From Coraliomargaritaceae bacterium (GTDB lineage: Bacteria > Verrucomicrobiota > Verrucomicrobiia > Opitutales > Coraliomargaritaceae): 49,085 bases of DNA. Within the stretch, counting starts at the first letter, position 1. The number at the start of each line of letters is the position of its first letter. The stretch covers positions 1 through 49,085 of the forward strand of contig CBFHKU010000005.1 of assembly GCA_965656495.1 (NCBI GenBank), written 5' to 3'. Position numbers and translations under genes: made by a program. Shown piece after piece: positions 31,193 through 47,321 of this stretch. The notes under the pieces are model-generated. The model was not told the origin of the DNA. It ran no database searches and saw nothing but the letters and a program-made list of their open reading frames with translations.

Positions 31193-32347
31193 GTGCGGCT
31201 ATCACCTGAAAAACCAAGTCTCTTTGGAGAAACGCTTGAAACCCTTACGGAAATCCTGAAGGAAGCTGGTCATCCCGCTTTTCGGGCACGGCAAATCATG
31301 GATTGGCTCTACAAAAAACGGGTGCAGGCGCTGGACGAAATGACCAATCTCCCCAAAAGCCTTCGCCAATGGCTGGATGCCAACTACTGTATTTATCCGG
31401 TGCGCCCGGTGCTGGATAAGCGTTCCAATGATGTCACTCAAAAATTGCTGATGGAGTTGGAGGATCGCTCATTGATTGAAACGGTACTGATTCGCGCGCC
31501 ACAGGAAGGGGTCGGGGTCGATCAGTCGCGCAAGACGGTGTGCGTCTCGATTCAGGTCGGCTGCGCCTATGGGTGCCGTTTTTGCGCATCGGGTCTTGCC
31601 GGGTTCAAGCGCAATCTCCTCGCCTCGGAAGTCGTGGCGCAGTTGATGCATATCTGCCGAATGGAGGATGCCCATACCGCGCGTGCCGAAGCATCCATCG
31701 CGTCCTTCGATAATATCGTCTTCATGGGAATGGGGGAACCGCTCGCAAATTATGACGCGCTGGTGCGCACGATCAAAATTCTGAACGCGGACTGGGGGCT
31801 GCATTTTGGAGCGCGTCGCATTACGGTTTCGACCTCGGGCCTGGCGCCGCAAATATTGAAACTGGCAGAGGAAGGTGTGGCGGTGCGGCTTGCGATCTCC
31901 CTCCACGGGGCGACCAACGCGGTGCGGGATCAGATCATGCCGATCAACAAAAAATACCCGCTCGAGGTTTTGCTTCCCGCCGCAAAGGCTTTTCAGGAAA
32001 AGCACGGGCGTATGCTAACGCTCGAGTTTATTCTGATTGAGGGGATCAATGACAGTCTCGAGCAGGCACGCGAGCTCGCCAAAATAGCTTACGATCTCCA
32101 CGCCCATGTGAACTGCATTCCCTACAACAAAGTGGAAGGGCTTGAATGGAAACGCCCCAGTATCGGGCGTCAGGATGCCTTTGTGAAAGTGCTGCGCGAG
32201 GCGGGAGTTTCGGTCACAATCCGCCGCGAGAAAGGCCATGATATCAACGCCGCCTGCGGACAATTGCGCCTCAAGACTGAAAAAGCCATGGCGGAGTCCG
32301 AGCCCCGTCCCGGTAATCCCTTCGGCGAAAAACCCGAGAGCGCCTAG
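31193..32347 (+). CDS. rlmN: 23S rRNA (A2503-C2) methyltransferase, radical SAM
   Basis: CxxxCxxC (GCAYGCRFC), MGMGEP and DINAACGQL. Confidence 0.97.
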   Translation: MRLSPEKPSLFGETLETLTEILKEAGHPAFRARQIMDWLYKKRVQALDEMTNLPKSLRQWLDANYCIYPVRPVLDKRSNDVTQKLLMELEDRSLIETVLIRAPQEGVGVDQSRKTVCVSIQVGCAYGCRFCASGLAGFKRNLLASEVVAQLMHICRMEDAHTARAEASIASFDNIVFMGMGEPLANYDALVRTIKILNADWGLHFGARRITVSTSGLAPQILKLAEEGVAVRLAISLHGATNAVRDQIMPINKKYPLEVLLPAAKAFQEKHGRMLTLEFILIEGINDSLEQARELAKIAYDLHAHVNCIPYNKVEGLEWKRPSIGRQDAFVKVLREAGVSVTIRREKGHDINAACGQLRLKTEKAMAESEPRPGNPFGEKPESA

Positions 32348-32361
32348 CGCTCCATATCGGT

Positions 32362-32530
32362 TATGAAGGTGGTTTTAGGTATGAAAGTGGGCTTTAGGTA
32401 TGAAAGTGGGAAAGTGGGAAGGTGGGAAAGTTAGGGAACGTCGAACATCGAACATTGAACGTTGAAGGGGTTGTTCGTTGAACGTTGTTGGTTGTTAATT
32501 GGGATTACTCTTACTCATGATCTTAATATC
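32362..32530. repeat. Microsatellite mosaic (same vocabulary as 664-4170)
   Basis: GTGGGAA(A/G), ATCGAAC/ATTGAAC and TCTTAC/TCTTAA runs. Confidence 0.8.
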
Positions 32531-32883
32531 GTGGAAGCGGCAATCCTGCCGCTTTGCTTGTTGCTGAAAAGCGACAAGCGTGTCGCTTCTACCTCCGGTG
32601 CTAGGAACAGCGACCGGGTTGTATATCGTGGAAGCGGCAATCCTGCCGCTTTGCTTGTTGCTGAAAAGCGACAAGCGTGTCGCTTCTACCTCCGGTGCTA
32701 GGAACAGCGACCGGGTTGTATATCGTGGAAGCGGCAATCTTGCCGCTTTGTTTGTTGCTGAAAAGCGACAAGCGTGTCGTTTCTACCTCCGGTGCTAGGA
32801 ACAGCGACCGGGTTGTATATTGTGGAAGCGGCAATCCTGCCGCTTTGCTTGTTGCTGAAAAGCGACAAGAGTGTCGCTTCTAC
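32531..32883. repeat. BIME/REPIN array: 4 x 97-bp units
   Basis: Units start at 32531, 32628, 32725 and 32822. Each has REP-A forward and REP-B reverse; a constant linker (CTCCGGTGCTAGGAACAGCGACCGGGTTGTATAT) joins successive units. Confidence 0.92.
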
Positions 32884-33072
32884 TGCAAGTAATCGGATGA
32901 GTGCTCATGAGCGACTCTAAGCGTGCCGGACTCAGGGCAGCATGCGGGCTATCCACATTCGTAAAATCCGCGTAATTGGTAGTTTTTTTTAAAACTACGG
33001 ATCGCGCGGATCGCACGGATTTCGGGAGTTAAAAGTTGAGAGTTCGCTGTTGGATCTTCGCGGTTCTTCGTC
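32829..33072. repeat. 244-bp direct repeat, copy 1
   Basis: Colinear with 34608-34851 (offset 1779), 5 mismatches counted by eye. A partial third copy lies at ~34230-34306. Confidence 0.9.
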
Positions 33073-33706
33073 ACGGTTCATAGGTTTTCAGTGCTCCTGC
33101 AATAATCGGTTTAGCCCATTCGGGTGCATGGGAAAGCTCAGGCCCAACCAGCTTTTGTGATTCGATGTGAAGGAGCAGTTTGGGCTGTGGCTTTTTGCCT
33201 CTTTTTGGATCTGCCTCTTTGGAATTATCGTAGAGTCGCAGGCTGTCGATGTGCGGCAAAAGCCTAATGAGGTTGCGTCGACTCCCATTCCAGCGCTTGC
33301 GAATGTCCTTCTCCGGGATGTCGTGGCCACCGGCATCAACCCGTGCTTTCACGCGGGCGATGTTCAGTTCCACGGATTCGAGTCCCGCATACCAGATTTT
33401 GACTTTGATGCCTGCCTTGGCGGCTTTGATGAGTAGGCTTGTAATGGTGTTTCCGCCAAGGGTTGCCTCGAAGGCAAAGGACTCGTTTTCGGCGATAGCC
33501 TTTTGCAGCATTTCCTTACCCAGCATCCAGGCATGCCCATTGGCGATTCGCTGCGTCATGTCAGGATGCATTGCCTTTAGTTGTTTGGCGGCCTCGTCTG
33601 GATTATGATAGATAAGGCCGTGCGACTCGATTGCAGCACCGCCAATGCTGCTTTTGCCTGAGCCGTTGACACCGGCAAGGACGTAAATGGTGGGCACTGC
33701 CATCAC
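33071..33706 (-). CDS. Zeta-toxin-like P-loop kinase (AAA_33/zeta family)
   Basis: LAGVNGSGKS Walker A, NPD, FAFEATL and RV..RV.AGGHDIP. Confidence 0.85.
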   Translation of the reverse strand: MMAVPTIYVLAGVNGSGKSSIGGAAIESHGLIYHNPDEAAKQLKAMHPDMTQRIANGHAWMLGKEMLQKAIAENESFAFEATLGGNTITSLLIKAAKAGIKVKIWYAGLESVELNIARVKARVDAGGHDIPEKDIRKRWNGSRRNLIRLLPHIDSLRLYDNSKEADPKRGKKPQPKLLLHIESQKLVGPELSHAPEWAKPIIAGALKTYEP

Positions 33707-34056
33707 TCGCTGAGCGCTCTTTTAGCAGCAACTTTTCCCAGTTCCTTTGGAGCGCAGTTGAAAGCGTCTTCGTAGGCAACCGCAGCTTCTGGATTTTGCA
33801 TGGCAGCAAAGCGCTTGTCGTAATCCTTCCGGAGTATTTCAAGGGGATCCCGGCTGGCGAGTTCCTTGATGATCTGATCATAAAGATCCGCAGACAGCAA
33901 AATTGCCTCGCGTTTCCTGTTGCGTGTGATGCTAACCGGCCCCGATTCCAATGCCTTTTGAAAGACGCTCTTGAAAGTGTTCTTCAAGTCTGTGGAAGGC
34001 GAGGTTGGCAGCTCGCGGGACGTGTGCAGCGAGTGGATATCTTGTGCGGATGGCAT
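33703..34056 (-). CDS. Phd/YefM-like antitoxin
   Basis: STDLKNTF...GPVSITRNRKREAILLS Phd pattern. Overlaps the toxin start; start chosen from promoter geometry. Confidence 0.8.
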   Translation of the reverse strand: MPSAQDIHSLHTSRELPTSPSTDLKNTFKSVFQKALESGPVSITRNRKREAILLSADLYDQIIKELASRDPLEILRKDYDKRFAAMQNPEAAVAYEDAFNCAPKELGKVAAKRALSE

Positions 34057-34057
34057 A

Positions 34058-34091
34058 ATGGCAAATATGGCAAAATTTGCCATTAAGTCAA
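34058..34091 (-). promoter_or_regulatory. TA promoter with palindromic operator
   Basis: TTGACT, 16 nt, CATATT, 7 nt, ATG. ATGGCAAA-A-TTTGCCAT at 34067-34083 plus a half-site at 34058-34065. Confidence 0.7.
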
Positions 34092-34541
34092 CTTTGATCG
34101 TGCCAAGGGTACTTTTTCTTGAAATCGCCACGCGCTGAACTGGAAGGCTTTAATTGCTTCGGTTTTGCCAGGCGCGACTAAAGCGCAAGCTGCCTGTTGC
34201 GTTAGGGAAGGGTGGAATCCGTTTCACGGCAGTATGCGGGCTATCCACATTTGTAAAATCCGCGTAATTGGTAGTTTCTTTTTTTAACTACGGATCGCAC
34301 GGATTTCCTTTCTCAAACGTACCCCCGAATCTCGCAGCTTTTTTTGCTTAAACCTTGGCTTCCTTAAATATTGCATCAGGCTCATCACTGCCACCTATCT
34401 CTGTGGATACGACCGGTGCGGTAGTCTCTGATACGGTAGAAGGTGACGGGGTTTGATATTTCGAATCCTGTGCCGCTGGAGCAGGCGCACCACCTGTTCC
34501 GGCGGATGACATCCTTGCCACCGCAGGCAAAGCCATCATAC

Positions 34542-34616
34542 CAACGCCGCCTGTGGTCAATTGCGGCTCAAGACTGAAAAAGCGATGGCGGAGTCCGAGC
34601 TCCTTCCCGGCAATCC
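34542..34616 (+). pseudogene. Diverged duplicate of rlmN 3' segment
   Basis: 75 bp colinear with 32245-32319, 7 mismatches of which 5 are synonymous in the rlmN frame. Confidence 0.88.
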
Positions 34617-34851
34617 TGCCGCTTTGCTTGTTGCTGAAAAGCGACAAGAGTGTCGCTTCTACTGCAAGTAATCGGATGAGTGCTCATGAGCGACTCTAAG
34701 CGTGCCGGACTCAGGGCAGCATGCGGGCTATCCACATTCGTAAAATCCGCGTAATTGGTAGTTTCTTTTTTAACTACGGATCACACGGATCGCACGGATT
34801 TCGGGAGTTAAAAGTTGAGAGTTCGCTGTTGGATCTTCGCGGTTCTTCGTC
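34608..34851. repeat. 244-bp direct repeat, copy 2 (begins in a truncated REP-A; REP-B at 34639-34662)
   Basis: Near-identical to 32829-33072. Confidence 0.9.
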
Positions 34852-34856
34852 TGCTT

Positions 34857-35231
34857 CTAACTTTTTTTGTATGGCGCAAAGGCAGTATCGATCATCGGGA
34901 AGTGCTTAATGTTGAGCGTTGCTAATTTCATTCCCTGCGACATGGCGGTAGCAGCAATGATGCAATCTGCCAGTCCACTCGAGTGAGACTTCCCGTATTC
35001 GCTTTTTAGAAGACCTGCTTTGATCGCGATGTCTCCAGTGATGGAGAAAACCCGCAGTTCGGAAACGAAAAGGTCTAGTAGCTCTCTTTCTTTTTTATTC
35101 CGAATGCCCTGATAGAGCTCCGCAATTGTCACCGAGCTTACCGAGACCACATCAACATTCCTTTCAATAAAATCTACTGCGAGGGGATTACCTTTTAGGT
35201 AATCGATCAACACATCGGTATCGACTAACAT
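34857..35231 (-). CDS. vapC: PIN-domain toxin VapC
   Basis: LVDTDVLID, TIAEL, LADCIIAATA and TLNIKHF. Confidence 0.9.
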   Translation of the reverse strand: MLVDTDVLIDYLKGNPLAVDFIERNVDVVSVSSVTIAELYQGIRNKKERELLDLFVSELRVFSITGDIAIKAGLLKSEYGKSHSSGLADCIIAATAMSQGMKLATLNIKHFPMIDTAFAPYKKS

Positions 35232-35233
35232 GA

Positions 35234-35464
35234 CTAAAACCTGTCGAAGTCAGACCTAAGCTCTTCAAGTGAAATAGCTTCGCGGTCCTGCCAGATGCCT
35301 TGTGCCTCTCTTATTCTCTCAAGTTTATCTTTGGGGTTCGATCTCACCAGAAACTCGTCGATCGCCTGACGTATCAGTTCGCTTTGTTTCTTTTGCAGAG
35401 AGCTTGCAAGACTGCTGATTCCGGCATGCTCTTCCTCAGTTAAATATATCTGAGTGCGTATCAT
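35234..35464 (-). CDS. Ribbon-helix-helix (CopG-like) antitoxin
   Basis: MIRTQIYLT...SELIRQAID. Promoter TTGACT-16-TACATT-7-ATG at 35472-35499. Confidence 0.85.
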   Translation of the reverse strand: MIRTQIYLTEEEHAGISSLASSLQKKQSELIRQAIDEFLVRSNPKDKLERIREAQGIWQDREAISLEELRSDFDRF

Positions 35465-35692
35465 ACACCGCAATGTATATGATCCTGTCCGGGAGTCAAG
35501 ATTCTCTTTTTATAAGGTAGAGAGGCGTCGGCGCCGAGGCGCAGCTCAGGTAGTGTTATAACAAAGTTATCGAATGCTGCATTTGATCTACGAGCAGAAA
35601 AAGGGATTGTTTGCCCGGCTTGGGGCAAGATGGTTGCCGAGGCCGTGACCGAGAAATTCTGGGGCATCATGCCGTCGAAGCAGCTATAGAAC

Positions 35693-37801
35693 CTACTTGT
35701 AGCTTTTTGCCTCTTCCATCGAGAGCAACTCATTCTGCGCGAGCTTGTAGGCTATCGCATAAGCAGAGCGCTTATGCTCGGCAGCTATCTCAGGGACTGG
35801 CTTCCCCTTCTTGAATTTATCGAATACCTCTTCTTTCTCCGCTGCGGGAAACGGTAGCCCATGGCGATCTGGTCGCCCGTTGGCACGATTCATTTCGATC
35901 CTCATTTCCTCAGTGAGTTTTTCCTTCTTGGGTTTTTCGACATTCACCTCCGATGGAGCTTCTTCTACCTCAGTGACTTCGCCCCCGTTGGCACGAATCC
36001 ACTGACGGATGACCTCCATAAAGGCCTCACCGTAGTCAGACAGCTTGCGCTTGCCGACCCCTGAAATCGCCAGAAAAGCCGAATCGCTCGTCGGTAAATC
36101 CGCTGCCATGTAGCGCAGCGACACATCCCCAAAAACCACATATGGAGGCACCCCGGCGGCATCCGCCAGTTCCTTTCTTAGTTGCCGCAGTTCCTGGAAA
36201 AGCCCCTCGTCACATTCCACCACGGCCCCCTTCGAGCTGACCTTCGGCTCCTTCACCGGCTTCAGAGCGGGCAATGTCAACACGATGCGTTGCTTCTGGT
36301 TCACTGCCTGAATTGCCCTTTTTGTAATCGTCAGTGTGCTGTAGCCATCATCCGAAAGCTGGAAATAGCCGTGCTGGGTCATCTGTTTCCCCAGCGCCAG
36401 CCAATACTCCGCAGGCTTATCCATGCCTTTCCCGTAGGCCCGCAACTTGTCATGCCCTTTCTGGATGACCTTTGCCGCCTTCGAGCCCCGCAGTACATCC
36501 ACCGCATGCTTCAGCCCCATCGGGTAGCCCCCGTCCGCGATCATATTCACGCAGTAGATCAGCTTTACTGCCCATTCCGTCACATCCTCCTGGCTTAGGT
36601 CGTCAACGCAATTGTCGCAGGTGCCACAGCGGCCACCCTCCAGCTCCTCCCCAAAGTAGCGCACCAGCGCCGCCCACCGGCAACTCGTGTTCTCGGAAAA
36701 ATCAGCCATCTGCCGCAGTTGCTGCTCAGCTATTCGTGCCGCATCCACGTCCTCCATCTCTGAGATAAACCGACGCAGCTTCAAAACATCACCCGCACCA
36801 TAGAGCAGTGTGCATTCCGATGGCAGCCCGTCACGCCCTGCGCGCCCCGTCTCCTGGTAAAAGCTCTCGATATTCTTCGGCAGATCTGCGTGGAGCACAT
36901 AGCGCACATTCGGCTTGTTGATCCCCATCCCGAAAGCCACCGTCGCACAGACCACCAAAACATCATCGCGAATAAACGCCTCCTGATTCGCCGCTCGCTG
37001 CTCGTCACTCAGACCCGCATGATAGGGCAACGCCTTGATCCCAAGGTCCTGGAGCGCAGCCGCATACTCCTCCGTCGTTTTTCGCGCCAGACAATACACG
37101 ATGCCTGATACATCCGGCCGCTCCTTCACGAAATTACAAACCTGCTGACGCACCTTCTTCTTCGGCCTCACCCGATAGCGCAAATTCGACCGATAAAAAC
37201 TTGCCACAAAGATCGCCGGGTTCTGCAAGGCCAACTGAGTGACGATATCCCGCCTTACACGTTCCGTCGCGGTCGCAGTCAACGCCACGAAAGGCACCCC
37301 AGGGAAATGCTTACGCAGCTCCGCCAGCTGTCGATACTCCGGCCTGAACTGGTGCCCCCATTCACTGATACAGTGCGCCTCATCAATCGCGATCGCGCTC
37401 ACCCGCCACCGCTTCAAATCCTCCAGAAAACCCTCCGCAAAGATCCGCTCCGGCGCCACATAGAGCAGCTTGTAGGCCCCCTTGTGCAGCCCCGCCAGCC
37501 GCTGCTGCGTTTCACTAAAGCTAATCGACGAGTTCAAAAACGTCGCCGCCACACCCGCCGCTTCCATCTGGTCCACCTGGTCCTTCATCAGCGCGATCAA
37601 GGGCGACACCACCACCGTCAGCCCCTCCCGCATCAAGGCTGGCAGCTGATAACACAGGCTCTTCCCGCCACCCGTCGGCAAAATCGCCAAAACATCGCGC
37701 CCGTCCAGTCCCGCCTTGATGATCGCCTCCTGCTTGGGGCGAAAGCTGTCATAACCAAAGACAGACTTTAAAGTTCCGGAAATATCGTACGTAACAGGCA
37801 T
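35693..37801 (-). CDS. recQ: DNA helicase RecQ with extra C-terminal HTH-like domain
   Basis: PTGGGKS, DEAHCISEWGH, ATVAFGMG, QETGRAGRDG, Zn motif CGTCDNC, RQC and HRDC (VPPYVVF). Start trimmed to MPVTY. Confidence 0.93.
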   Translation of the reverse strand: MPVTYDISGTLKSVFGYDSFRPKQEAIIKAGLDGRDVLAILPTGGGKSLCYQLPALMREGLTVVVSPLIALMKDQVDQMEAAGVAATFLNSSISFSETQQRLAGLHKGAYKLLYVAPERIFAEGFLEDLKRWRVSAIAIDEAHCISEWGHQFRPEYRQLAELRKHFPGVPFVALTATATERVRRDIVTQLALQNPAIFVASFYRSNLRYRVRPKKKVRQQVCNFVKERPDVSGIVYCLARKTTEEYAAALQDLGIKALPYHAGLSDEQRAANQEAFIRDDVLVVCATVAFGMGINKPNVRYVLHADLPKNIESFYQETGRAGRDGLPSECTLLYGAGDVLKLRRFISEMEDVDAARIAEQQLRQMADFSENTSCRWAALVRYFGEELEGGRCGTCDNCVDDLSQEDVTEWAVKLIYCVNMIADGGYPMGLKHAVDVLRGSKAAKVIQKGHDKLRAYGKGMDKPAEYWLALGKQMTQHGYFQLSDDGYSTLTITKRAIQAVNQKQRIVLTLPALKPVKEPKVSSKGAVVECDEGLFQELRQLRKELADAAGVPPYVVFGDVSLRYMAADLPTSDSAFLAISGVGKRKLSDYGEAFMEVIRQWIRANGGEVTEVEEAPSEVNVEKPKKEKLTEEMRIEMNRANGRPDRHGLPFPAAEKEEVFDKFKKGKPVPEIAAEHKRSAYAIAYKLAQNELLSMEEAKSYK

Positions 37802-37838
37802 CGCTTTTGAAATAGCCTCCAAAAAATATTTTAAACCA

Positions 37839-38435
37839 TTAATTGGTTGCCAGCCACTTCCGGCCCTTGTCGGAGATTTCCCAGACACCGTTGGGGGAAT
37901 CTTTCTTCATCCGGCCGTCGGTGTTGACCATCTTGTTGCGGGCCCATTGCGCTGAGTTGCGCCAGCGAATTTGTTTGTGGTTCGATTTGTGGCATTCGTA
38001 GTCGATAGGCTTTAGGGTGGCTTTCATTTTTTCGCCGACCCGGTCAAGCACGGTCTTGGTCTTGCCCTTACCGCCCATCTCGACCAGTACTTGGAGGATG
38101 GGCCTGCAGTAGTCTTCCTGTGGCGTGATCAGTCCCTTCTTCTTTTTACCGAAGAAGTGTTTGCTTACGATTTGCTGGACCTCGGGCGTCGCGGCGTCGC
38201 GGGCGTTTTCGAGGTCTTCCCACTCGTCGGCCAGCGCGGCCACTTTGTTTTGGAAGGCCACCAGCCTCTCGGCAAATTCAATTACCTGGCGGGCCGTCTC
38301 GAAGGCTCCGGCCTTCATGGCATCGGCGCCTTCTTCGCCGATCCGGGTCTTTTCTTCGGTCAGAGTTTCGGAGAGTAGCGCGAGGGCTTCGCCGACGTCG
38401 TTACCGGGATTGTGGGTGCTTTTCTTTTTAGGCAT
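37839..38435 (-). CDS. Coiled-coil + Mrr N-terminal winged-helix domain protein
   Basis: C-terminal half P...Y.RPIL.VL...RWRN..QWAR...GVWEISDKGR matches the Mrr_N pattern. No catalytic domain. Confidence 0.75.
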   Translation of the reverse strand: MPKKKSTHNPGNDVGEALALLSETLTEEKTRIGEEGADAMKAGAFETARQVIEFAERLVAFQNKVAALADEWEDLENARDAATPEVQQIVSKHFFGKKKKGLITPQEDYCRPILQVLVEMGGKGKTKTVLDRVGEKMKATLKPIDYECHKSNHKQIRWRNSAQWARNKMVNTDGRMKKDSPNGVWEISDKGRKWLATN

Positions 38436-38486
38436 ATTCGGGATGGATAGATTTTGTTGACAAATGGACTGAGTTGGAGTCTCTTA

Positions 38487-38556
38487 GTGGTGCTGTGAAT
38501 GAAATTCGGCCGCGTGCCGTGAGTGCCTTCGGGCTCCTATATTCACGGCTTTTTTA
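38487..38556 (-). ncRNA. Structured RNA candidate downstream of DUF3800-like remnant
   Basis: Stem GCCGTGA/TCACGGC (38516-38522 with 38543-38549) enclosing a GCC-CGAA-GGC hairpin. An alternative partner lies at 38492-38500. Confidence 0.5.
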
Positions 38557-38826
38557 TGCCCTCATGCTTTCGGGGGAAGGTGGTGGTGAGGCTTGGCCAG
38601 TTCTTCGGCGTGTAGAAGGTGCCCCCACTCGGACCGTGATGGAGGTCATGGATTTCAGCGATCTGGGACTGGAGCATATTGAGGTAGCGGTCCTCGCGGA
38701 TGATCTTTCCGTTCTGCGGGTGGGTGCGCGGCTCGTAGAAGCGTTGCACGGCCCGCTGCCGCGCTTCTTCCCGAACAGCACGGGGTCTCCGGATTCGTCG
38801 ACGAAACTGTAAATCGTGTCACTCAT
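38543..38826 (-). pseudogene. DUF3800-like gene remnant (internal deletion plus frameshift)
   Basis: N-terminus MSDTIYSFVDESGD (DUF3800-like DESG motif) is ATGA-coupled to the upstream gene. The frame shifts after ~26 aa and a C-terminal-like segment continues in another frame to 38543. Confidence 0.6.
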
Positions 38827-39311
38827 TCAGATTTTGCCTTTTCGGCCCGACGCTTTGCGCGCTTATTCCAATTTACGACCAAGTTACTTAAGACCTCACC
38901 TGTCTCACAGGAGACTCTCGTCATGTCCAGAAACTCATCAACGGGGAGTGTCGGAGTGCCGGGGTCTGAGCGAACGAGGTTGTGCACGATTTTATTCCTT
39001 TGCCTACGCCAAGTATCGATCAAGTCCCATACGCTTTCACCCTCGTCGCTCAAAAGCTCCTCATGCCCTCGAACTGCATCAGTGAGGTTGTGTAGGCTGT
39101 GATCCCAACCCTGCCTGTTTTTTAGGGGAAAGTTATGTGCCCCGTGCAAGAACGAGAGAATGCGGTCACTAATGATTGATTCGATGATCGCAGTGGCCTC
39201 GATATAGAAGTGATGCTCCTTGGCTGCCTTGATACGTGCCTTAGCTTCACGATAACTGTCCGCTTTTGCGATGTTACCTTTTTTTGCTGGTGATGGTAAG
39301 GATTTTCTCAT
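38823..39311 (-). CDS. HEPN-domain protein (putative RNase effector)
   Basis: All-helical 162 aa with YIEA...ES and the RxxxxH motif RNKIVH. ATGA-coupled to the MTase. Confidence 0.65.
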   Translation of the reverse strand: MRKSLPSPAKKGNIAKADSYREAKARIKAAKEHHFYIEATAIIESIISDRILSFLHGAHNFPLKNRQGWDHSLHNLTDAVRGHEELLSDEGESVWDLIDTWRRQRNKIVHNLVRSDPGTPTLPVDEFLDMTRVSCETGEVLSNLVVNWNKRAKRRAEKAKSE

Positions 39312-42300
39312 GGCTCGCCTTCTCTACTTTCTACTTGAAACGCACCGGGCCAGCCGCCGTGGGTTTCGATGACTTCGTCGATTTCGGCCATGAGGCGGAT
39401 GGTTTCGGTCAGGGCGATGACGATCTTGTGGTAGTGGGCGATGTCCTCCTGGGTCAGGATGCGGTCTTTCCTGTCTTTGAGCCACTTATGGCAGACTTGG
39501 TAGCCGCCGATGTGGAAGTTCCACACTTCCTCGGGGATAGGTGCGAAGCCGCTGGTGCCTACTTTGGGCTCCTTCGCAGTGCCTTTGCCGTCGATCCAGA
39601 CGGTGCCTCCGTTGTCGGGTGTGTAGGTGACTTTGCTGACTTGGGCGTCGTCTCCTATGAACTCGGTAATGGGTTCGTCAAGTGTAGGAGATTCCAGCAT
39701 GTGCAGAGCGGTGAGTTCGCAGCCGAGGCGGGCAAGTTCACGGAACAGTTCCAAGCTGCTGGTTAACGGTAGGCGTGGGAAATCAATCTTCAGAAACTCC
39801 GTGTAGCGGCTGCGGTAGCCGGGACTATGAAAGACCCCGTAGGCGTAGTGGAAGATGTCTTCGGGCGTCAGGCCGCGCGGCAAGTTGTGAGGTTGTGCCT
39901 GCGGTAAGTTAAGTGCGCTCGCCAGTTGTCGGAGAAATGCGGGTGCAAAGTTTGGCTCACCGTCATTGCCGAACGCTAGTTCTCCATCGCTCACGTATAT
40001 GTAAAGCGGATGAGCGTATCCGCGTTCGCGCGACTTATTCGAAACGTAGCAGTCATCTATGAGGCCGCGAGCAACAAGAATATGCGCCCAACCCTCGCTG
40101 ACGCATTGACGGCAGACATGAAATGCAACGTTGCTTCCCGCAAGCATGTGGCCCGAAACCTCTGGCCGCGGCCAATCAACCATCCAGTCGGCCCAATAGA
40201 CTTTGCGCTTGTCGAACGGGCGATAGCTACAGGTCTTGACGCGCTCCTTCCAATTTTCGTCGCCTGCGACCAGCTTACGCGCTTCGGGAAGTTTCCAACC
40301 GCGCGTATCACCGTCGGGATATTTGTTTGACCCGCAACCAGCGAAATGGGCCGCGCGAATGTCAGCGTCTGATTTCTTGAGATTTGCGAAATCGTCGATG
40401 CGCTCCAGCAATGCTGCCTTGTCGAGGTCCACAACGAAATGGTCGCGTGCGGTAATGAAGCCTGCACAATTTATCGGCATTGCCTCGTTAATCTTCCAAC
40501 CGCTGTCGTATTCGTCTCGGTAGTCAGTATTTTGAGGCTCAAAAAAGTAATACGGTGAGTCAGGTGTCAGTGCGACGAACCCACTGTTGGCTACGGAGCG
40601 CTTAGCGAGCCACGAGTATTTCGCCTCACGCAGGCCCCACAAATCCGCGTGTTCGACACCATTATTTGAACCGCCTCGCGTAGCAAGGCAAACGGCAACA
40701 CCCTGTTGGATGTCGAAGACATTCTTGTCGGTAACGCCAACGGGAGGATATTCGATTCTAGTAGTATTGCCATGCAGGTCAAGTGCGCGAAAGGAAGTGA
40801 ACGTGGTCATGAGGCTCTGCCGCATTCCTCGAAACGTCGGGTTGTCTAGATAGCTGTGATTCGTGATATAGCTAAAGAGACCGACCTTGCTGTTCTCGAT
40901 GGTTGTCTGCGCATTGCGGATAAACTTAACGTAGTCGTCTTGGAGCCAAACTTTCCTTTCATTTAGCGCAGCGCCATCGACGAACTTGTAAGCATCAACG
41001 ATGTGTTGCGCGTATTCGGACATGTTCGACGAGATTCCCGAATACGGTGGGTTGCCGATTACGACGGTGAAGCGCTTGCTACGTTTGATTTTGTTTACGA
41101 CAGCGGCTTCTTGAGCTAGTGCCTCAAAGTCTGGCAGGGCGAGCTGATTTTGCCATGGTTCCAATGCATTTGTGAGATAAATTTGAGCTCGTTCCTGGGA
41201 TTCGAAGCGGTAGCCCGTCTCGGCGAGTTTCAGACCGATCTTCATGTGAGCGATAGCGTAGGGAGCCATCATGAGCTCGTAGCCGTAGAGACGTGGCAAG
41301 AGTGATGCAGAGACGTAAACCTGCCAGTAGTCGACAAAGGATTTTGGCGGGGCACCGGCCTGCTTATCCTTCGGGATCTCTGGCATAGTCGGAAGACCAC
41401 CCTTTTCCCACATATTTTGGAGGTGTTGATGAACAACATCAATGACCTGGACAAGGAAGGTGGCGGTGCCGGTTGCGGGATCGAGGATCTGAACGAAGGG
41501 TTCGTCGGGGGAGATAGTCTCCTTGCAGTCAGGTTCGTCGGTGAGTGGAGGAAGTTTCAGATCAGAGTTGCGCTGGAGCATTTCGCCCCAGGTAGTCGTG
41601 TCGGCAAGGCCGTGCTTGAGATCGAATTCGGTTTGCAGGAGTTCGTGGACGCTACGGACGATATAGGACACTACGGGCTGCGGGGTATAGTAAACGCCGC
41701 GCCGCTTACGCTGCACTTTCTCGTATGCCTCTAGGAAATGCTCGTAGAAATGGATGACGGGGTCCTCGCCTCTTGTCTTGTTGTTAAAGTCGGCAAGGAT
41801 GGCAGGCATGTGGGTGTCGGGACTGGTGAGCAGATCGGTCACGTCACTCACGCCCATTTCATCAAAATCAAGGCCTCCCTGCTGCGCCTTGATACCGAGG
41901 AAGATGCTGAGCATATCGCGCAGGAAAGGGCTGGTGAAATAGTGGTTAAGGTCTTCCTTAGCAAAGGCAGTGCCGCCGTCTTCAAAGGAGCGTCGGCAAG
42001 CGAGGGAGAACAGTCCGTAGGTGACGGTTTGGGCAAACATGTCGGCAAAACCGGCATTGTCCATATCGTGAATCAGACAGTCCTGAAAGGCTTTCTGGAG
42101 TTGTCGTATCTGGCCGCCTGAGGTCTCGATTCGCAGAATATCCTCAAGGCGCTTACGGAGCAGTTTAGCTACGCGGGCAAGCTCCTCAGCGAGTTGGTCG
42201 GACTTGGTGATAGCGTGACGGTGGCGCAGGATAAAGGCCTTGGCCCAAGTCGCACGCCACTCGTCCTGATGATCCACATCATCAGGCCAGCGGAGATTCT

Positions 42301-42796
42301 CTTTTAGAGTGGAATCGACCATCTGCATGTGCAGCGGCGTGTCGTCATCATCCCAGCCAAGGACGCGGAGCTCAGCTAGACCGGAGCCGGGGTTTTCCAC
42401 GAAGTGGGCAAAGCTGATAGCGCGGTCGCTGGAATCGCCGAAGTTCGTGATAAAGAGCAGGTCGTTGGGTTGCCAGGCCATGCGCTCCGCCTTGTTGGCC
42501 GATTGGCGTTTCTTAATCACGAGGGAGCGCAGAATGCGGCGCATGACTGTAACGGGCAGTCTCTTATCATCGAACTCGACAAAGAAGATCCCCCACGGCT
42601 GTTCGCCTTCCAATGGGCGAAGCTGACGAATAGTTCGCACTTTAGCCGCATCTTCGCCACTAAGCCCGACTTCCTCGGGTTCGTAGTCGAAAGAGAGTTC
42701 CTCCGGTGTGAAGTCCTCAACGGGCCAGTCCAGCTCGTCACGGAGGTATTCGAGAAGTTGGTCGAAGTCGTTAATCGATTGAAGTAGTTGTGTCAT
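39308..42796 (-). CDS. N6-adenine DNA methyltransferase with Type ISP/IIG-like C-terminal TRD
   Basis: GVYYTP, motif I ILDPATGTATFL, motif IV VIGNPPY, DLHG, YRPFD, DFPRLP and IGGYQV..KWLKDRK. Confidence 0.9.
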   Translation of the reverse strand: MTQLLQSINDFDQLLEYLRDELDWPVEDFTPEELSFDYEPEEVGLSGEDAAKVRTIRQLRPLEGEQPWGIFFVEFDDKRLPVTVMRRILRSLVIKKRQSANKAERMAWQPNDLLFITNFGDSSDRAISFAHFVENPGSGLAELRVLGWDDDDTPLHMQMVDSTLKENLRWPDDVDHQDEWRATWAKAFILRHRHAITKSDQLAEELARVAKLLRKRLEDILRIETSGGQIRQLQKAFQDCLIHDMDNAGFADMFAQTVTYGLFSLACRRSFEDGGTAFAKEDLNHYFTSPFLRDMLSIFLGIKAQQGGLDFDEMGVSDVTDLLTSPDTHMPAILADFNNKTRGEDPVIHFYEHFLEAYEKVQRKRRGVYYTPQPVVSYIVRSVHELLQTEFDLKHGLADTTTWGEMLQRNSDLKLPPLTDEPDCKETISPDEPFVQILDPATGTATFLVQVIDVVHQHLQNMWEKGGLPTMPEIPKDKQAGAPPKSFVDYWQVYVSASLLPRLYGYELMMAPYAIAHMKIGLKLAETGYRFESQERAQIYLTNALEPWQNQLALPDFEALAQEAAVVNKIKRSKRFTVVIGNPPYSGISSNMSEYAQHIVDAYKFVDGAALNERKVWLQDDYVKFIRNAQTTIENSKVGLFSYITNHSYLDNPTFRGMRQSLMTTFTSFRALDLHGNTTRIEYPPVGVTDKNVFDIQQGVAVCLATRGGSNNGVEHADLWGLREAKYSWLAKRSVANSGFVALTPDSPYYFFEPQNTDYRDEYDSGWKINEAMPINCAGFITARDHFVVDLDKAALLERIDDFANLKKSDADIRAAHFAGCGSNKYPDGDTRGWKLPEARKLVAGDENWKERVKTCSYRPFDKRKVYWADWMVDWPRPEVSGHMLAGSNVAFHVCRQCVSEGWAHILVARGLIDDCYVSNKSRERGYAHPLYIYVSDGELAFGNDGEPNFAPAFLRQLASALNLPQAQPHNLPRGLTPEDIFHYAYGVFHSPGYRSRYTEFLKIDFPRLPLTSSLELFRELARLGCELTALHMLESPTLDEPITEFIGDDAQVSKVTYTPDNGGTVWIDGKGTAKEPKVGTSGFAPIPEEVWNFHIGGYQVCHKWLKDRKDRILTQEDIAHYHKIVIALTETIRLMAEIDEVIETHGGWPGAFQVESREGEP

Positions 42797-42799
42797 GAT

Positions 42800-43252
42800 T
42801 TAGACGGTGGATCCGTGAAGCGTATTCAAGAGTAAGAGTGAACCAGCTATGTAAGAAATTATAGTCAGACCATCCATGATCGCGGAGGGCCAAGTTAAGT
42901 TCGAGTAATACAAGCTTTTTATATAACTTTTCGTTTGCCTGAAACTCGCGTTTATCTCCCCTATATAAATGTAGCCCATTGCGATCTTATAGAGATATAC
43001 TTATAGCAATTGCAGGAAGCGACCGAAAAAGAATAAAGATATTACCAGCCAAACATTATTTGATTCACGCAAGGCCTCTCCAAATTCAACGTTAGTTGCA
43101 AAGAGAAAAGGGACACCAATTCCAAAAGCAACAAGCCAGTTCCTGAGGATTTTTGCATGATTTGCGTAGGCCTCGTAATATCCAGATTCATGCTCAGGAA
43201 TTTCACAGGCTTTCTGCTCAATCGCCTTAGTATGCTCGGTTTCTGGATTCAT
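42800..43252 (-). pseudogene. Decayed ~3-TM membrane protein gene
   Basis: After LQLL a TAA is followed in frame by VYLYKIAMGYIYIG; two further frame changes lead to WPSAIMDGLTIISYIAGSLLLL and a stop at 42800. AT-rich. Confidence 0.6.
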
Positions 43253-43276
43253 AGATACAGTCGCTTCAGGGAATGA

Positions 43277-46200
43277 TTAGTTCAACTCCATCCAGCACTT
43301 GAGCACGGGGGACACGCCGACAGGAGCTTGCAGCGGGCGCAGGTGCGATTTATTCAGGTCCTTCTCTACCTTTTCCCTAAGCTTGGTCAGGGCGGCTTGA
43401 TCGAATGCTGTTTTTCGAGGAGTGCTTTCGTCGGACCGTGCCAGCATGGCGATGCGGCCGGAGTCGGGGCTGATGAAGTTGCCCTCCAGGTCGTAGAGCA
43501 ACCAGAGGGTATCGCCTGCCGATTCGGCCCAGAGCGGCTCGCCTGTTTTCGGGTCGGGCATTTCAGGGTCCGGACGGGGGATGCGATAGCAGAAGAAGAC
43601 GGCTTTGGTCTTCGGGTCAGGTGATTCCTTTCCGCTGAATGTCTTGAGCGGATAATTGGGGAGTTTCGCAGCAAGCTCGGAGTGATCCTTAATCAGCTGT
43701 TGGTATTCGAGTGCCAGTTTCTCGGATACCGTCTGCTCGCCCTCGAATTGTTCGTTGATTTCTTTAATCGGGTCGAAGTCGTCGTCGGGGCGGAGTAGCT
43801 TTTTGCCCTCGATGCCGAATGCCTTTGAGATGACAAGTGTCTTCCGGTTTACGCGGTTGTAGATTTTGAGAAGCGTTTCTAGTTCGTCGGGCGGAAGGAA
43901 GTTCCAATAAACGACGCGGTTGCGGGTGCCTTCCTGCTCGGGGTGTGCGGCCAGTATCTGAGCTTCGATGTCCGGGTTCATCCGCCGGTCCACACGGCCG
44001 ATCCGCTGCATGAGTCGGACGGGGTTCCAATGGAGGTCGAAGTTGATCAGGCGGTTGGCGTCCTGCAGGTTGAGGCCTTCGGCAAGGACGTCTGTCGCAA
44101 TGAGGATGTCGATCGCCTTGTCTGCGGGTGGAACCGTGGCACCATTGTAATAGGGAGCGAAGCGGTGAATGACGGCGCTCCGCTGCTTCTGGTTGCTGCT
44201 GCCGTCGATGCGCTCGACGCGCTCTAGGCCCTTTTCCTTAAGATGGTGCTCCAGATAAACGGCCGTATCGGAGAACTCGGTAAAGATGATGACCTTACGC
44301 CCTTTGAGCTCCTTGTTGTCTTTGAGCAGTTTGGCGAGGGCGCTCAGTTTCGAGTCGCGGTCCGGGCGCACATCTTTGACCAATCGGAGGAAGTCGGCAA
44401 CTTGTTCCAGATCGTCCATGGTTTCATCGAACATGTCATCGACGCGGTAGATTTCGCGGTCGAGCTTATCCACTTCTTCGCGGTGGGCGTCGGTGATAAA
44501 CTCTTCCGCATCTTCGTCATCCGCCCAAAACTCGGCCTGTGTGCTCTGGGCGTGGCCAACCTTTTCCATAAGATCGGAATGCTTCGTCTTCCAGCGGTCG
44601 ATGCGTTTCAGGTCGTGGTCTCGGTCAGCATGCTCTTCCGCCCATGTGAGTAGTTTACGCAATAGCCGCCAGCATGACATCTCAAATGCTTTTGCTGAAC
44701 TCTCGAAGCGCTTGAGGAACAAGGTTCGGATGAGCGAGACGACCTGCTTCTGACGACCGCTCTCAAAGTCATCCTCAGTGGTTTCATCGACGAGGTAAGC
44801 AAGGGGGCTGTAAAGTGCCAGAGCGAAGAGTGGCTTTTCCTTGTCGAATGCTTTGGCGACGGCCTCCAGTAAGCGCCCGTAGGTGATCTTGAGCTGGTAG
44901 TTGGCAACTTGCGGGGCATCGCGATCGGGAAAGAGGACAGCGTTGGATGCTTCTAGGGTTTCACTGGCCCTGACGTAGCCACGGCTGCGTTGGACGACGA
45001 GTTCACCAAAGATGTCTCCAGCCTCTGTCGCATCGCGCAGGGCAGTAAGGTATTCGGTTTCTGCCAGACCTTCCGCCGTCTGCTTATGAAATTTCTTATC
45101 CAGTTCGTTGAAGTGGCTCTGCAGGTTATGGATGCCGAGATTGCGGGCGCCCTTCGAGAAGTAGGCTTGATCCTCGCCAGTAACGAGACCTGCAATGTGG
45201 CGAAAGTCGTGGACGCTGTTGTTGATGGGCGTCGCAGTTAGGAAGAAGACCTGCTTGGGGCGGCTATCCTGCTGGATGATGTAGCTCTGAAGCTTTCGAT
45301 AACGAGACATTTGCTTCTCTCCCGTCCCTGCGACACCGGGATTTCGGAAGTGGTGCGCTTCGTCGATGACGATCACGTCGGCATCCTTGATGGTCCGTGC
45401 AATACGATTTGGCCAGCCGTCGGAAGTGCGGGTTAGATCTGTATGGCTGTAGCTCACTAGAGGCTGGAAGTCGCTATCGAGGTGAGGGAGCAAGTTTTTG
45501 ATAACGGGCCCCCATACGTCTTCTTTTGCAGCTTTGGGTGCAAAAAGAGCGACTCGCTTGCCTTCTTTCACGATCATTCGCTCGATCAGCATCAGGCCGA
45601 CAAATGTTTTACCCAAACCAACGCCATCGCAGAGGTAGGCCAAACCGTAGCGGGTGGCGATCTCCATCAAGTTCTTGTAGGCGTCACGCTGGTAGCCTGC
45701 CAGCTTCTCGAAAATAATGGAATTTTCCCGATCCCACTGGTCGGGTGAAGGTCCCCTGTCCCTGGCGTATTCGTAGAGCGCCTTTGCCCATACCTCGAAA
45801 GGTGTCCGCTCTTTACTGTGATGCTCCATCACGCGGAGCACTTCGGGGGTCACGTCTTCGGCTTCTTCCCAATGCATTTCATACCAATTCTGCAGCGCAT
45901 TTACCTGCGAACCGGTGACCTGTATATTCAGTTCGACATTATCGCATAGGCCCGGATAGGTGAAGTTGGATGAGCCAACAAGGGCAGCAGAACCGATGAC
46001 AGCCTTCTCAGCATGGGTGATGTAGGCCTTTGCGTGAAACTTGTCCTTACGGTAAACGCGGCACTTGATTTGCCCGCTGCGCAAGGCTTCGACAATCGCA
46101 GGAACACCCTTCAGGAAGTCGTTCTGCTTCTTCTCCAACTCGATACTTTCGTCGAGAGTGGCCGTGATCTTCTCAAGACCAGCATTGAAGGCCTTCTTCG

Positions 46201-46411
46201 TCCTGAGAGAGACTTCGTCCCCCATTAGAATCCGGATCTCAGCGACCGATTGCCACGCACCATCTAAGGCGAGCAGACCTCCAAGCTCGAAGTAGCCGGT
46301 GGCAATATCCACGCCTTTCGATAGCTCGCACCATTCAAACAGGTAGCGCTTCACCTTCCAATCTGAATGTGTGTTATCTACGATGAAGAGTTCGCTTCCG
46401 ATGTTAGCCAT
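43277..46411 (-). CDS. PLD-nuclease + SF2 (SNF2-like) helicase fusion
   Basis: PLD HAK...GSSNFT...ELN; helicase DGVGLGKT, DEAHH, LTATP, EGLNLQ and QRIGRVDR. Confidence 0.9.
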   Translation of the reverse strand: MANIGSELFIVDNTHSDWKVKRYLFEWCELSKGVDIATGYFELGGLLALDGAWQSVAEIRILMGDEVSLRTKKAFNAGLEKITATLDESIELEKKQNDFLKGVPAIVEALRSGQIKCRVYRKDKFHAKAYITHAEKAVIGSAALVGSSNFTYPGLCDNVELNIQVTGSQVNALQNWYEMHWEEAEDVTPEVLRVMEHHSKERTPFEVWAKALYEYARDRGPSPDQWDRENSIIFEKLAGYQRDAYKNLMEIATRYGLAYLCDGVGLGKTFVGLMLIERMIVKEGKRVALFAPKAAKEDVWGPVIKNLLPHLDSDFQPLVSYSHTDLTRTSDGWPNRIARTIKDADVIVIDEAHHFRNPGVAGTGEKQMSRYRKLQSYIIQQDSRPKQVFFLTATPINNSVHDFRHIAGLVTGEDQAYFSKGARNLGIHNLQSHFNELDKKFHKQTAEGLAETEYLTALRDATEAGDIFGELVVQRSRGYVRASETLEASNAVLFPDRDAPQVANYQLKITYGRLLEAVAKAFDKEKPLFALALYSPLAYLVDETTEDDFESGRQKQVVSLIRTLFLKRFESSAKAFEMSCWRLLRKLLTWAEEHADRDHDLKRIDRWKTKHSDLMEKVGHAQSTQAEFWADDEDAEEFITDAHREEVDKLDREIYRVDDMFDETMDDLEQVADFLRLVKDVRPDRDSKLSALAKLLKDNKELKGRKVIIFTEFSDTAVYLEHHLKEKGLERVERIDGSSNQKQRSAVIHRFAPYYNGATVPPADKAIDILIATDVLAEGLNLQDANRLINFDLHWNPVRLMQRIGRVDRRMNPDIEAQILAAHPEQEGTRNRVVYWNFLPPDELETLLKIYNRVNRKTLVISKAFGIEGKKLLRPDDDFDPIKEINEQFEGEQTVSEKLALEYQQLIKDHSELAAKLPNYPLKTFSGKESPDPKTKAVFFCYRIPRPDPEMPDPKTGEPLWAESAGDTLWLLYDLEGNFISPDSGRIAMLARSDESTPRKTAFDQAALTKLREKVEKDLNKSHLRPLQAPVGVSPVLKCWMELN

Positions 46412-46412
46412 A

Positions 46413-47033
46413 TCAAAAATAATTCAAAAGTTCACTAACTGCAAAGAGCTTAACACCGCCTGTCGATCGAATCTTGCGAACCCCGTCGATAAAAGGCGTA
46501 ACCACCCAGACCTGGCACTGCAGTTTGTCGCCAATCAATTCCGCCTGGGCAATCGTCTTTTTAATATCCCCATCCACGTTAGCCTTACACTCTAACGCGA
46601 TCCGCCTCCTGTCCTGCTCGATCAAAAAGTCTGTCGAGTAAATCCCTTCACAATAGTCCTGCTGGTAGGTGATTCCTGCTTTGTCCAGTTCCCGAGCCAC
46701 GCTGCGCTTGAATTGGATCGACTGCGTCTTCCGCTCCAGGAACTGCTCCGCTCGCAGCCGCAGGATTTTCTTCTCAGCCGATGGCAATACCTGGTCCGAC
46801 TCCTCATCCAGCAATTCCGTCCCGGCAAAAGCCGCGACTAAGTGTCGCTCTTGCTCCTTCGTCTCGCAGGGCCGCTTCATGATTCGGGTCAGCGTGAACT
46901 GACGTGGCCGGCTCTGCCCATTCAAAATCTGGCTCACAGAAGTCGGCGTGATCCCAATGGATTCGGTCAGTTGCAGGCCGGAAGCCTTCTTTGCCTCGAT
47001 GGGCTGCCGCACAGCGTCTCCAAAAAGGTTCAT
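46413..47033 (-). CDS. XRE-family HTH fused to PD-(D/E)XK-like domain
   Basis: L...IGITPTSVSQILNG..RP HTH and C-terminal TDFLI...IALECK. Stop is 1 nt from the helicase start. Confidence 0.65.
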   Translation of the reverse strand: MNLFGDAVRQPIEAKKASGLQLTESIGITPTSVSQILNGQSRPRQFTLTRIMKRPCETKEQERHLVAAFAGTELLDEESDQVLPSAEKKILRLRAEQFLERKTQSIQFKRSVARELDKAGITYQQDYCEGIYSTDFLIEQDRRRIALECKANVDGDIKKTIAQAELIGDKLQCQVWVVTPFIDGVRKIRSTGGVKLFAVSELLNYF

Positions 47034-47212
47034 AGGAAAACAATATATGAATATCTTGGCATTAACAGGTGTTTACAGTAAACGATTTTTCTTACCCGAA
47101 CGTCAATGTGTTTATCCGAACAGGATTGTTTGCCTGGCTTGGGGTCCTCCGGCGCCGTGGCGTAGCTGCAGAGTAGCAGCTTGCGGTTTTAACTCCTGAT
47201 TGCACCGGGCAT

Positions 47213-47244: not shown

Positions 47245-47321
<77 letters not shown>

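What the first reader, a model, noticed from the sequence alone, without database searches (positions are those of the whole stretch)
35693..47033. Candidate undescribed defence operon: split Type ISP-like PLD-helicase + MTase-TRD with HEPN, Mrr-N and RecQ
Seen: one tightly packed minus-strand run, XRE-nuclease > PLD/SF2 helicase (1044 aa) > decayed TM gene > m6A MTase with ISP-like TRD (1162 aa) > HEPN > DUF3800-like remnant > Mrr-N protein > RecQ, with 1-nt and ATGA junctions. Known: Type ISP enzymes carry nuclease, helicase, MTase and TRD in one chain with an Mrr-type nuclease; CglI/NgoAVII use separate PLD and helicase subunits with a C5-MTase; DISARM needs DrmA and DrmB (DUF1998), which I do not see. 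Inference: a two-subunit ATP-dependent R-M system in which the PLD-helicase provides translocation and cutting, the MTase provides specificity (its N-terminus shows no clear PD-(D/E)XK), and accessory abortive effectors back it up.
Basis: partly seen in the sequence, partly recalled or inferred. Interest (0 to 1): 0.82.

Follow-up and report, generated by a model that had tools for sequence, protein, structure and literature searches.

The report
Two-gene motor-nuclease plus methylase defence
Two intact genes in a strain-variable DNA insert encode a motor-driven DNA cutter and a DNA methylase that are almost always inherited together and are predicted to bind each other, so they likely form a two-protein restriction-modification defence whose layout was noted in 2016; the six genes around them are not shared by related loci and are likely passengers.

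Summary
The ORFs and junctions are real, but this is a two-gene system with passengers, not an eight-gene one. The core is a PLD-Snf2 helicase (1044 aa) and an m6A MTase-TRD (1162 aa) of the DrdV/Type ISP class. The MTase follows the helicase in 51 of 52 loci with room; the helicase precedes the MTase N-terminal domain in 52 of 54. That domain has no conserved nuclease motif and is predicted to bind the helicase C-terminus (score 0.66, best control 0.00). The TRD is hypervariable, and two MTase classes alternate behind the same helicase. XRE, HEPN, the TM gene and RecQ were found in 0 of 160 related loci, Mrr-N in 2; the TM and DUF3800 genes are broken. The 11.5-kb block lies between 22-nt repeats inside a 14.9-kb insert beside tRNA-Met. 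'Undescribed' is too strong: Blow et al. 2016 reported this layout (AchA6III), with a homologous helicase but an MmeI-type MTase, and showed methylation only. It is not Type ISP, MANTIS or DISARM. This scan found the same pair before in other genomes. Restriction itself is untested.

The parts
43277..46411 (-). CORE: PLD (single HKD) nuclease + Snf2-family motor + C-terminal alpha/beta domain, 1044 aa; residues 1017-1034 predicted to dock the MTase
39308..42796 (-). CORE: m6A MTase-TRD, 1162 aa: N-terminal domain 1-190 (likely dead nuclease fold, predicted docking site), helical linker, NPPY MTase, hypervariable TRD, Type_ISP_C
46413..47033 (-). XRE HTH + PD-(D/E)xK-like protein, 206 aa; family heads several unrelated defence loci in the order; not tied to this system
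42800..43252 (-). Broken membrane-protein gene between the core genes (premature stop at 43001-43003), 41% GC against 55% for the core
38823..39311 (-). HEPN-like protein, 162 aa, R-x4-H motif intact; rare passenger
38543..38826 (-). DUF3800 remnant with ~195-residue internal deletion; relatives of this gene lie beside the core in 10 of 80 genome loci
37839..38435 (-). Helical N-terminus + Mrr_N domain, 198 aa, no Mrr catalytic domain detected; 2 of 160 related loci
35693..37801 (-). Ordinary RecQ (RQC, HRDC), 702 aa from the likely start; the only RecQ in this genome, not found in 6 congeners; cargo of the block
35604..35625 (.). 22-nt direct repeat, left end of the XRE-RecQ block
   Evidence: (D16)
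47123..47144 (.). 22-nt direct repeat (21 of 22 identical), right end of the block
47245..47321 (-). tRNA-Met; the 14.9-kb insert (about 32325-47200) lies between its terminator and rlmN

Best explanation
The 1044-aa PLD-Snf2 protein and the 1162-aa MTase-TRD are encoded together in nearly all related loci and likely form a two-subunit, ATP-dependent restriction-modification system, in which the methylase likely reads and marks a short asymmetric site and is predicted to recruit the motor-nuclease through a likely inactive N-terminal nuclease domain. Shown: domains, intact catalytic motifs, co-occurrence, TRD variability, exchange of MTase class. Predicted: the helicase loop 1017-1034 binds MTase residues 26-37 and 58-65. 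Inferred by analogy with DrdV, AchA6III, SauUSI and MANTIS MtsD: one strand of the site is methylated in the host; at unmethylated sites the Snf2 motor moves along double-stranded DNA; two single-HKD PLD domains pair to make one active site and cut, best between inverted sites. The other six genes are passengers of a variable island.
For: Helicase then MTase in 51 of 52 genome loci with >=2.5 kb downstream; helicase upstream of the N-terminal domain in 52 of 54 metagenome loci with >=2.5 kb upstream, found with the MTase domain alone. No third gene family is in more than 10 of 80 loci. HxK, Walker A and DExH present in 81 of 81 helicases. TRD 27% mean identity against 51-55% in the flanking regions, n=30. 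Complex model: score 0.66, best of 3 controls 0.00; the mark was reached by 116 of 157 solved and 2 of 215 mismatched pairs; runs share >=78% of contacts; partner pLDDT >=78; neither interface domain has a sequence relative in the PDB. L062/L063 share a 95%-identical helicase and MTase residues 1-82 (the predicted contact part) but differ after that (32%) and in MTase class. The AchA6III MTase, next to a homologous helicase, methylates one adenine of a 6-bp asymmetric site (PMC4752239 S3 Table).
Against: No methylome, cleavage or phage data for this clade. The fold match of the N-terminal domain to the DrdV nuclease is weak (Z 4.7, rmsd 4.1, 107 aligned, tied with unrelated rows) and the Atlas MmeI_N hit (0.87) is a lead only. 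A shifted (D/E)76-x-K78 is present in about two thirds of sequences, so residual activity is not excluded. Mean conservation of the whole predicted interface is no higher than background (0.60 vs 0.60; 0.51 vs 0.57). For MANTIS no MtsD cleavage and no MtsD-MtsABC binding could be shown in vitro. The 80 genome loci were the closest of 570 hits; distant PLD-Snf2 relatives (26-28%) have other partners.
Confidence: 0.65

Rival explanations
1. The pair recognises unmethylated sites as above, but blocks phage by BREX/DISARM-like exclusion or by non-specific DNA damage and cell death, not by site-directed cutting after translocation.
For: Snf2 helicase plus PglX-like MTase is also the shared core of DISARM class I and ARMADA. 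MtsD cleavage has not been reconstituted.
Against: HxK is present in 81 of 81 helicases. No YprA/DUF1998 or AAA+ partner is conserved in the loci or found in the genome. Split MTase genes beside intact helicases occur in several loci, which fits a nuclease that is harmless without its reader (inference).
Confidence: 0.15
2. The MTase is an autonomous Type IIG/IIL enzyme that still cuts with its own N-terminal domain; the helicase is a helper or a separate defence.
For: Best PADLOC model is REase_MTase_IIG (641 bits); closest structure is DrdV; (D/E)76 in 40 and K78 in 36 of 57 sequences.
Against: At the expected E-x-K position residue 74 is E in 23 of 57 and residue 76 is K in 6 of 57; no acidic residue reaches 75% between 43 and 111. 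The domain is almost never seen without the helicase and is predicted to bind it.
Confidence: 0.08
3. All eight genes work as one system, with HEPN, Mrr-N, XRE and RecQ as back-up effectors and regulator.
For: Tight junctions; the block from XRE to RecQ is bounded by a 22-nt repeat and appears to be gained or lost as one piece; HEPN motif intact; DUF3800 recurs in 10 of 80 loci.
Against: XRE, HEPN, TM, RecQ 0 of 160 loci, Mrr-N 2 of 160. XRE relatives head Type I, DUF499 and other loci. RecQ orthologues in five family genomes have none of these neighbours. Two genes are broken.
Confidence: 0.07
4. The cassette is decaying and silent in this strain.
For: Two neighbouring genes are broken; the stop in the TM gene could be polar on the MTase.
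Against: Both core frames and all catalytic motifs are intact, and contigs from independent runs match them without differences.
Confidence: 0.05

Closest known systems
AchA6III-type atypical Type IIG ('IIG*'), Blow et al. 2016 (PMC4752239, S4 Fig B legend, S3 Table)
   Same: MTase/TRD without PD-ExK next to a fused PLD nuclease/translocase; same gene order; the helicase on pACHL02 is homologous (27% over residues 34-866, E 7e-55).
   Different: Its MTase is MmeI-family (MmeI_Mtase, MmeI_TRD; 955 aa) with no BLAST or profile hit to this MTase or its N-terminal domain. Here the TRD is Type_ISP_C. That ACHL_RS22620 is Achl_4502 is my inference. Only methylation was shown.
DrdV (Type IIL/IIG, PDB 7lo5)
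   Same: Closest solved relative of the MTase-TRD (E 3.8e-25); same domain order; weak top fold match of the N-terminal domain.
   Different: DrdV cuts with its own D64/E79/K81 site and needs no motor; that motif is not conserved here.
Type ISP enzymes (LlaBIII, LlaGI)
   Same: Homologous MTase and TRD (E 3.6e-22, 6.1e-21).
   Different: Single chain with Mrr-like nuclease. Here two chains, PLD nuclease and Snf2 motor; the helicase has no hit to them at E<=0.001.
MANTIS / Gao_RL / BR type 2 (bioRxiv 10.64898/2026.09.23.753747; PMC12839542)
   Same: PLD-SF2 effector with an N6A MTase that sets specificity.
   Different: Needs AAA+ MtsA (DUF499) and MtsB; DUF499 is not in this genome nor conserved in the loci. 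NF042964 scores 131 of 1100 bits.
DISARM class I / ARMADA
   Same: Snf2 helicase beside a large adenine MTase.
   Different: No DUF1998/MZB domain in the genome; DrmD model 149 of 610 bits; PLD is fused, not a separate DrmC.
SauUSI (Type IV)
   Same: PLD + SF2 motor acting as a dimer.
   Different: Reads methylated cytosine with its own SRA domain and has no MTase partner; no SRA hit here.

Membership tests
AchA6III-type IIG* | Adjacent gene with fused PLD nuclease/translocase | tested here: met
   homologous to the pACHL02 helicase
AchA6III-type IIG* | MTase/TRD chain lacking the PD-ExK motif | tested here: met
   no conserved E-x-K or upstream Asp in 57 sequences; register assigned by me from the predicted strand
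AchA6III-type IIG* | MmeI-family MTase/TRD (orthology to AchA6III) | tested here: not met
   TRD is Type_ISP_C; no hit between the two MTases
AchA6III-type IIG* | Single-strand m6A on an asymmetric site | not testable with these tools
   needs SMRT or nanopore methylome
Type ISP | Nuclease, motor, MTase and TRD in one polypeptide | tested here: not met
   two genes in the window and in the related loci
Type ISP | Mrr-like N-terminal nuclease | tested here: not met
   PLD nuclease; the Mrr_N gene has no catalytic domain hit and is in 2 of 160 loci
Type ISP | Gamma-class MTase with ISP-type TRD | tested here: met
Canonical Type IIG/IIL (DrdV) | Active PD-ExK nuclease at the N-terminus | tested here: not met
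   against DrdV residues; by sequence only, activity not measured
Canonical Type IIG/IIL (DrdV) | N-terminal domain of restriction-endonuclease fold | tested here: inconclusive
   Z 4.7, rmsd 4.1, 107 aligned to DrdV 4-142; Atlas 0.87 MmeI_N
MANTIS / BR type 2 | DUF499 AAA+ ATPase MtsA in the locus | tested here: not met
   (genome 99.36% complete)
MANTIS / BR type 2 | MtsB (DUF3780) gene | tested here: not met
   no such Pfam or PADLOC hit among the block's proteins; no conserved small gene in the loci; genome not searched for it
DISARM class I / ARMADA | DrmA/DrmB or YprA helicase with DUF1998 | tested here: not met
   PF09369 0 matches in the genome, control rang in 8 of 14
CglI / NgoAVII | Separate PLD-B3 and helicase subunits with a C5 MTase (recalled; abstract of PMC5861437 seen) | tested here: not met
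   PLD and motor fused; MTase is NPPY m6A type

The most novel reading that the evidence does not exclude
A plug-in restriction system: one PLD-Snf2 motor-nuclease uses a short C-terminal loop to dock on the dead nuclease domain of interchangeable Type IIG-like methylases of two different classes, so specificity is swapped gene by gene behind a constant engine. It would be the minimal, two-protein model for how Snf2 motors and PglX-like methylases couple in BREX-related, DISARM and ARMADA systems.
Probability: 0.5. Interest if true: 0.65.

Novelty: new variant of a known kind. Interest (0 to 1): 0.46.

Why it matters
How a methylase that reads the site hands over to a separate ATP motor-nuclease is open for MANTIS, BREX, DISARM and ARMADA, which have four or more subunits; for MANTIS cleavage could not be reconstituted. 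A two-protein version with a predicted contact surface makes that question directly testable. The family is widespread (17 named phyla among 80 loci; 985 clusters for the N-terminal domain), and annotation tools see only a 'Type IIG' gene, so the likely nuclease partner is missed. The eight-gene cluster as such does not matter.

Tried and rejected
Foldseek of the N-terminal domain gave no match at E<=0.001; its profile and the helicase C-terminal domain found nothing useful in PDB sequences or PADLOC; the Atlas hit for the helicase C-terminus (RapA_C, 0.83, 33% of members) is too weak to use. No close relative on plasmids: helicase at E<=1e-100 and N-terminal domain at E<=1e-6 both blank. Promoter/terminator scan no better than shuffles. 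The one RNA run holds only a few short pieces: no evidence on expression. The PADLOC DpdF hit of RecQ is rejected: NCBIfam DpdF scores 197 of 550 bits, RecQ passes its cut-off. No integrase among the 13 proteins scanned and no duplicated tRNA end was found, so how the block moves is unknown. Mirror correlations (N-terminal domain vs helicase identity rho 0.49, MTase 0.25, TRD 0.11) rest on non-independent pairs and are not counted as evidence. L060 was labelled 'TaqI-like class' from its N-terminal domain alone (contig ends), so the N-terminal tree test is partly circular for that row. L015, L039 and L054 were left out of the N-terminal alignment and trees (frameshifted starts).
Full report
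Observation. The 1044-aa protein has PLDc_2 and Helicase_C hits, intact H126-x-K128, Walker A, DEAH and motif VI, and a Snf2-family motor by structure (top Z 19.1, rmsd 3.7, 418 aligned, to ALC1; model pLDDT 78). The 1162-aa protein has DPATGT, NPPY and Type_ISP_C (258 bits); its closest solved relatives are DrdV, LlaBIII and LlaGI. The TM gene has one premature stop, DUF3800 has lost about 195 residues, and contigs of public runs match both breaks. RecQ is an ordinary RecQ.

Setting. The genome is 2.06 Mb and 99.36% complete and is held by marine runs; a Verrucomicrobiota host is my inference from the labels of the nearest relatives. In 4 of 5 congeners searched rlmN and the DUF1501 gene are about 210 nt apart with only tRNA-Met between them (the fifth contig ends there); here 14.9 kb lie between, and one contig of run X13 shows the empty join. 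Within the insert, XRE to RecQ is bounded by a 22-nt repeat. A contig of X14 carries the 8 bases that precede the left copy directly before the right copy, and contigs of X11 and X15 begin exactly at 47123.

What is conserved. I fetched the best 80 of 570 helicase loci from species-representative genomes (49-75% identity; 17 named phyla). In 51 of the 52 with at least 2.5 kb downstream an MTase gene follows; the exception, L058, has a TA pair and a transposase-like frame there. In reverse, 80 metagenome loci found with the MTase N-terminal domain alone have the helicase upstream in 52 of the 54 with at least 2.5 kb of room, downstream in one and absent in one. No other family is in more than 10 of 80 loci (DUF3800), and neighbouring slots hold YhcG, TIR, PIN, AAA_21, Fic and others (44 genes scanned). 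Across all 160 loci XRE, HEPN, TM and RecQ have no hit and Mrr-N has 2. XRE relatives occur in 28 of 400 other genomes of the order; in 14 loci examined the next gene was HsdM (3), DUF499 (2), a small MTase (2), KilA-N (2), SNF2 (1), AlbA (1) or unassigned (3). HEPN was found in 0 of those 400. RecQ was not found in 6 congeners, and five family orthologues have none of these neighbours. The system is patchy: 6 of 401 genomes of the phylum, own included.

The MTase. Among 30 intact ISP-class partners the TRD (772-960) averages 27% identity against 51-55% on either side, as expected for specificity change. Of 36 partner proteins scanned from 35 loci, 24 have Type_ISP_C and 12 (11 loci) are Eco57I-type, 6 loci with TaqI_C; both classes share the N-terminal domain. 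On the helicase tree (56 rows, quick method) the second class needs 10 changes, at least 9 forced by starred branches, no more clustered than shuffles (124 of 500); on the N-terminal tree it needs 1 (support 40). So whole MTase genes are exchanged behind the helicase. L062 and L063 share 95% DNA identity over the helicase and the first 249 nt of the MTase, then diverge. The N-terminal domain folds well (pLDDT 87); its best structural match is the DrdV nuclease domain but only at Z 4.7. At the expected E-x-K position residue 74 is E in 23 of 57 and residue 76 is K in 6 of 57, and no upstream acidic residue is conserved; a shifted (D/E)76-x-K78 occurs in about two thirds. I read the domain as a likely dead nuclease.

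Binding. Helicase 236-1044 with MTase 1-190, both as alignments, scored 0.66 against a best control of 0.00; that mark was reached by 116 of 157 solved and 2 of 215 mismatched pairs, roughly applicable here; runs share at least 78% of contacts and partner pLDDT is at least 78. The lowest-error contacts join helicase 1020-1032 to MTase 33-37 and 58-62. A1029, P1030 and G1032 are kept in 54-56 of 58 sequences and Q58, R60, P61, L62 in 48-50 of 57, though the interface as a whole is no more conserved than background. Neither domain has a PDB sequence relative, so recall of a solved complex is not evident. The model supports binding; it does not show it.

Mechanism. Most likely (0.65) the MTase-TRD marks one strand of a short asymmetric site and, at unmarked sites, recruits the motor-nuclease, which moves along DNA and cuts as a PLD dimer, best between inverted sites. 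Every step after recognition is inferred from SauUSI and the MANTIS model. Rivals: exclusion or suicide without site-directed cutting (0.15), an autonomous IIG enzyme (0.08), an eight-gene system (0.07), a silent relic (0.05).

Prior art. Blow et al. 2016 (PMC4752239; passages, S4 Fig legend and rows of S3/S4 Tables seen, figure not seen) describe AchA6III: an MmeI-like MTase/TRD without PD-ExK beside a fused PLD nuclease/translocase, with an m6A motif. The matching locus on pACHL02 has a homologous helicase (27%) but an MmeI-family MTase with no hit to this one. It is the only held paper naming AchA6III. Milman et al. 2023 (PMC9881135, Table 3 passages) list PLD+SNF genes beside Cj0031-like RM genes with inverting ends. 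I also saw: the MANTIS preprint (abstract, introduction, MtsD section, discussion), passages of PMC12839542, PMC12707154, PMC12458937, PMC10853773, PMC3710099, PMC5608340, PMC3874165, the DrdV preprint and 10.64898/2025.12.08.692795, and the abstract of 10.64898/2026.05.13.724313. Searches showed no test of restriction by such a pair and no mention of the ISP-TRD form; subscription journals, REBASE and preprint supplements were not searchable and could hold either. MANTIS and DISARM/ARMADA are excluded by missing partners. Four other distant helicases (26-28%) on plasmids sit beside an N-6 methylase, an Eco57I-type gene, Type III-like genes or no annotated MTase, so the two-gene rule is shown for this clade only.

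Verdict. A real, widespread and biochemically untested two-gene R-M-like system; a new variant (ISP-type TRD, predicted docking surface, class exchange) of a layout named in 2016, and found before by this scan in other genomes. The surrounding genes are island cargo. Interest 0.46.

Noticed in passing
window 32829-33072 and 34608-34851: 244-nt direct repeats (98%) flank a Phd-like + Zeta/AAA_33 gene pair (33071-34131); contigs in runs X11 and X14 join 33011 to 34819, i.e. haplotypes without the pair.
   Followed up: partly
window 34518-34616 vs 32221-32319: An 86%-identical second copy of the rlmN 3' end inside the insert, suggesting capture by recombination with a related chromosome.
   Followed up: partly
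window 32526-32883: Tandem 97-nt repeat of a family with many copies across the genome's contigs, with a palindromic core.
   Followed up: no
window 34857-35473: RHH + PIN (VapBC-like) pair next to the left 22-nt repeat; present at higher contig depth than the XRE-RecQ block in X11.
   Followed up: partly
window 46413-47033; L204-L217: XRE + PD-(D/E)xK-like family in 28 of 400 genomes of the order, placed at the head of Type I R-M, DUF499 and other defence loci: a possible general regulator of defence islands.
   Followed up: partly
L019, L045, L071; L022, L023, L072, L079: Partner MTases with extra C-terminal AlbA_2 (3) or Peptidase_S24 (4) domains.
   Followed up: no
L004, L010, L030, L033, L034, L039, L041, L049, L057, L080: MTase gene in two pieces in 10 of 59 loci, mostly beside an intact helicase: assembly error, decay or phase variation.
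   Followed up: no
G008 region L111: The RecQ orthologue lies about 1.9 kb from radC-rlmN in another genus of the family, so RecQ may be an old resident of this chromosomal region that returned on the insert.
   Followed up: partly
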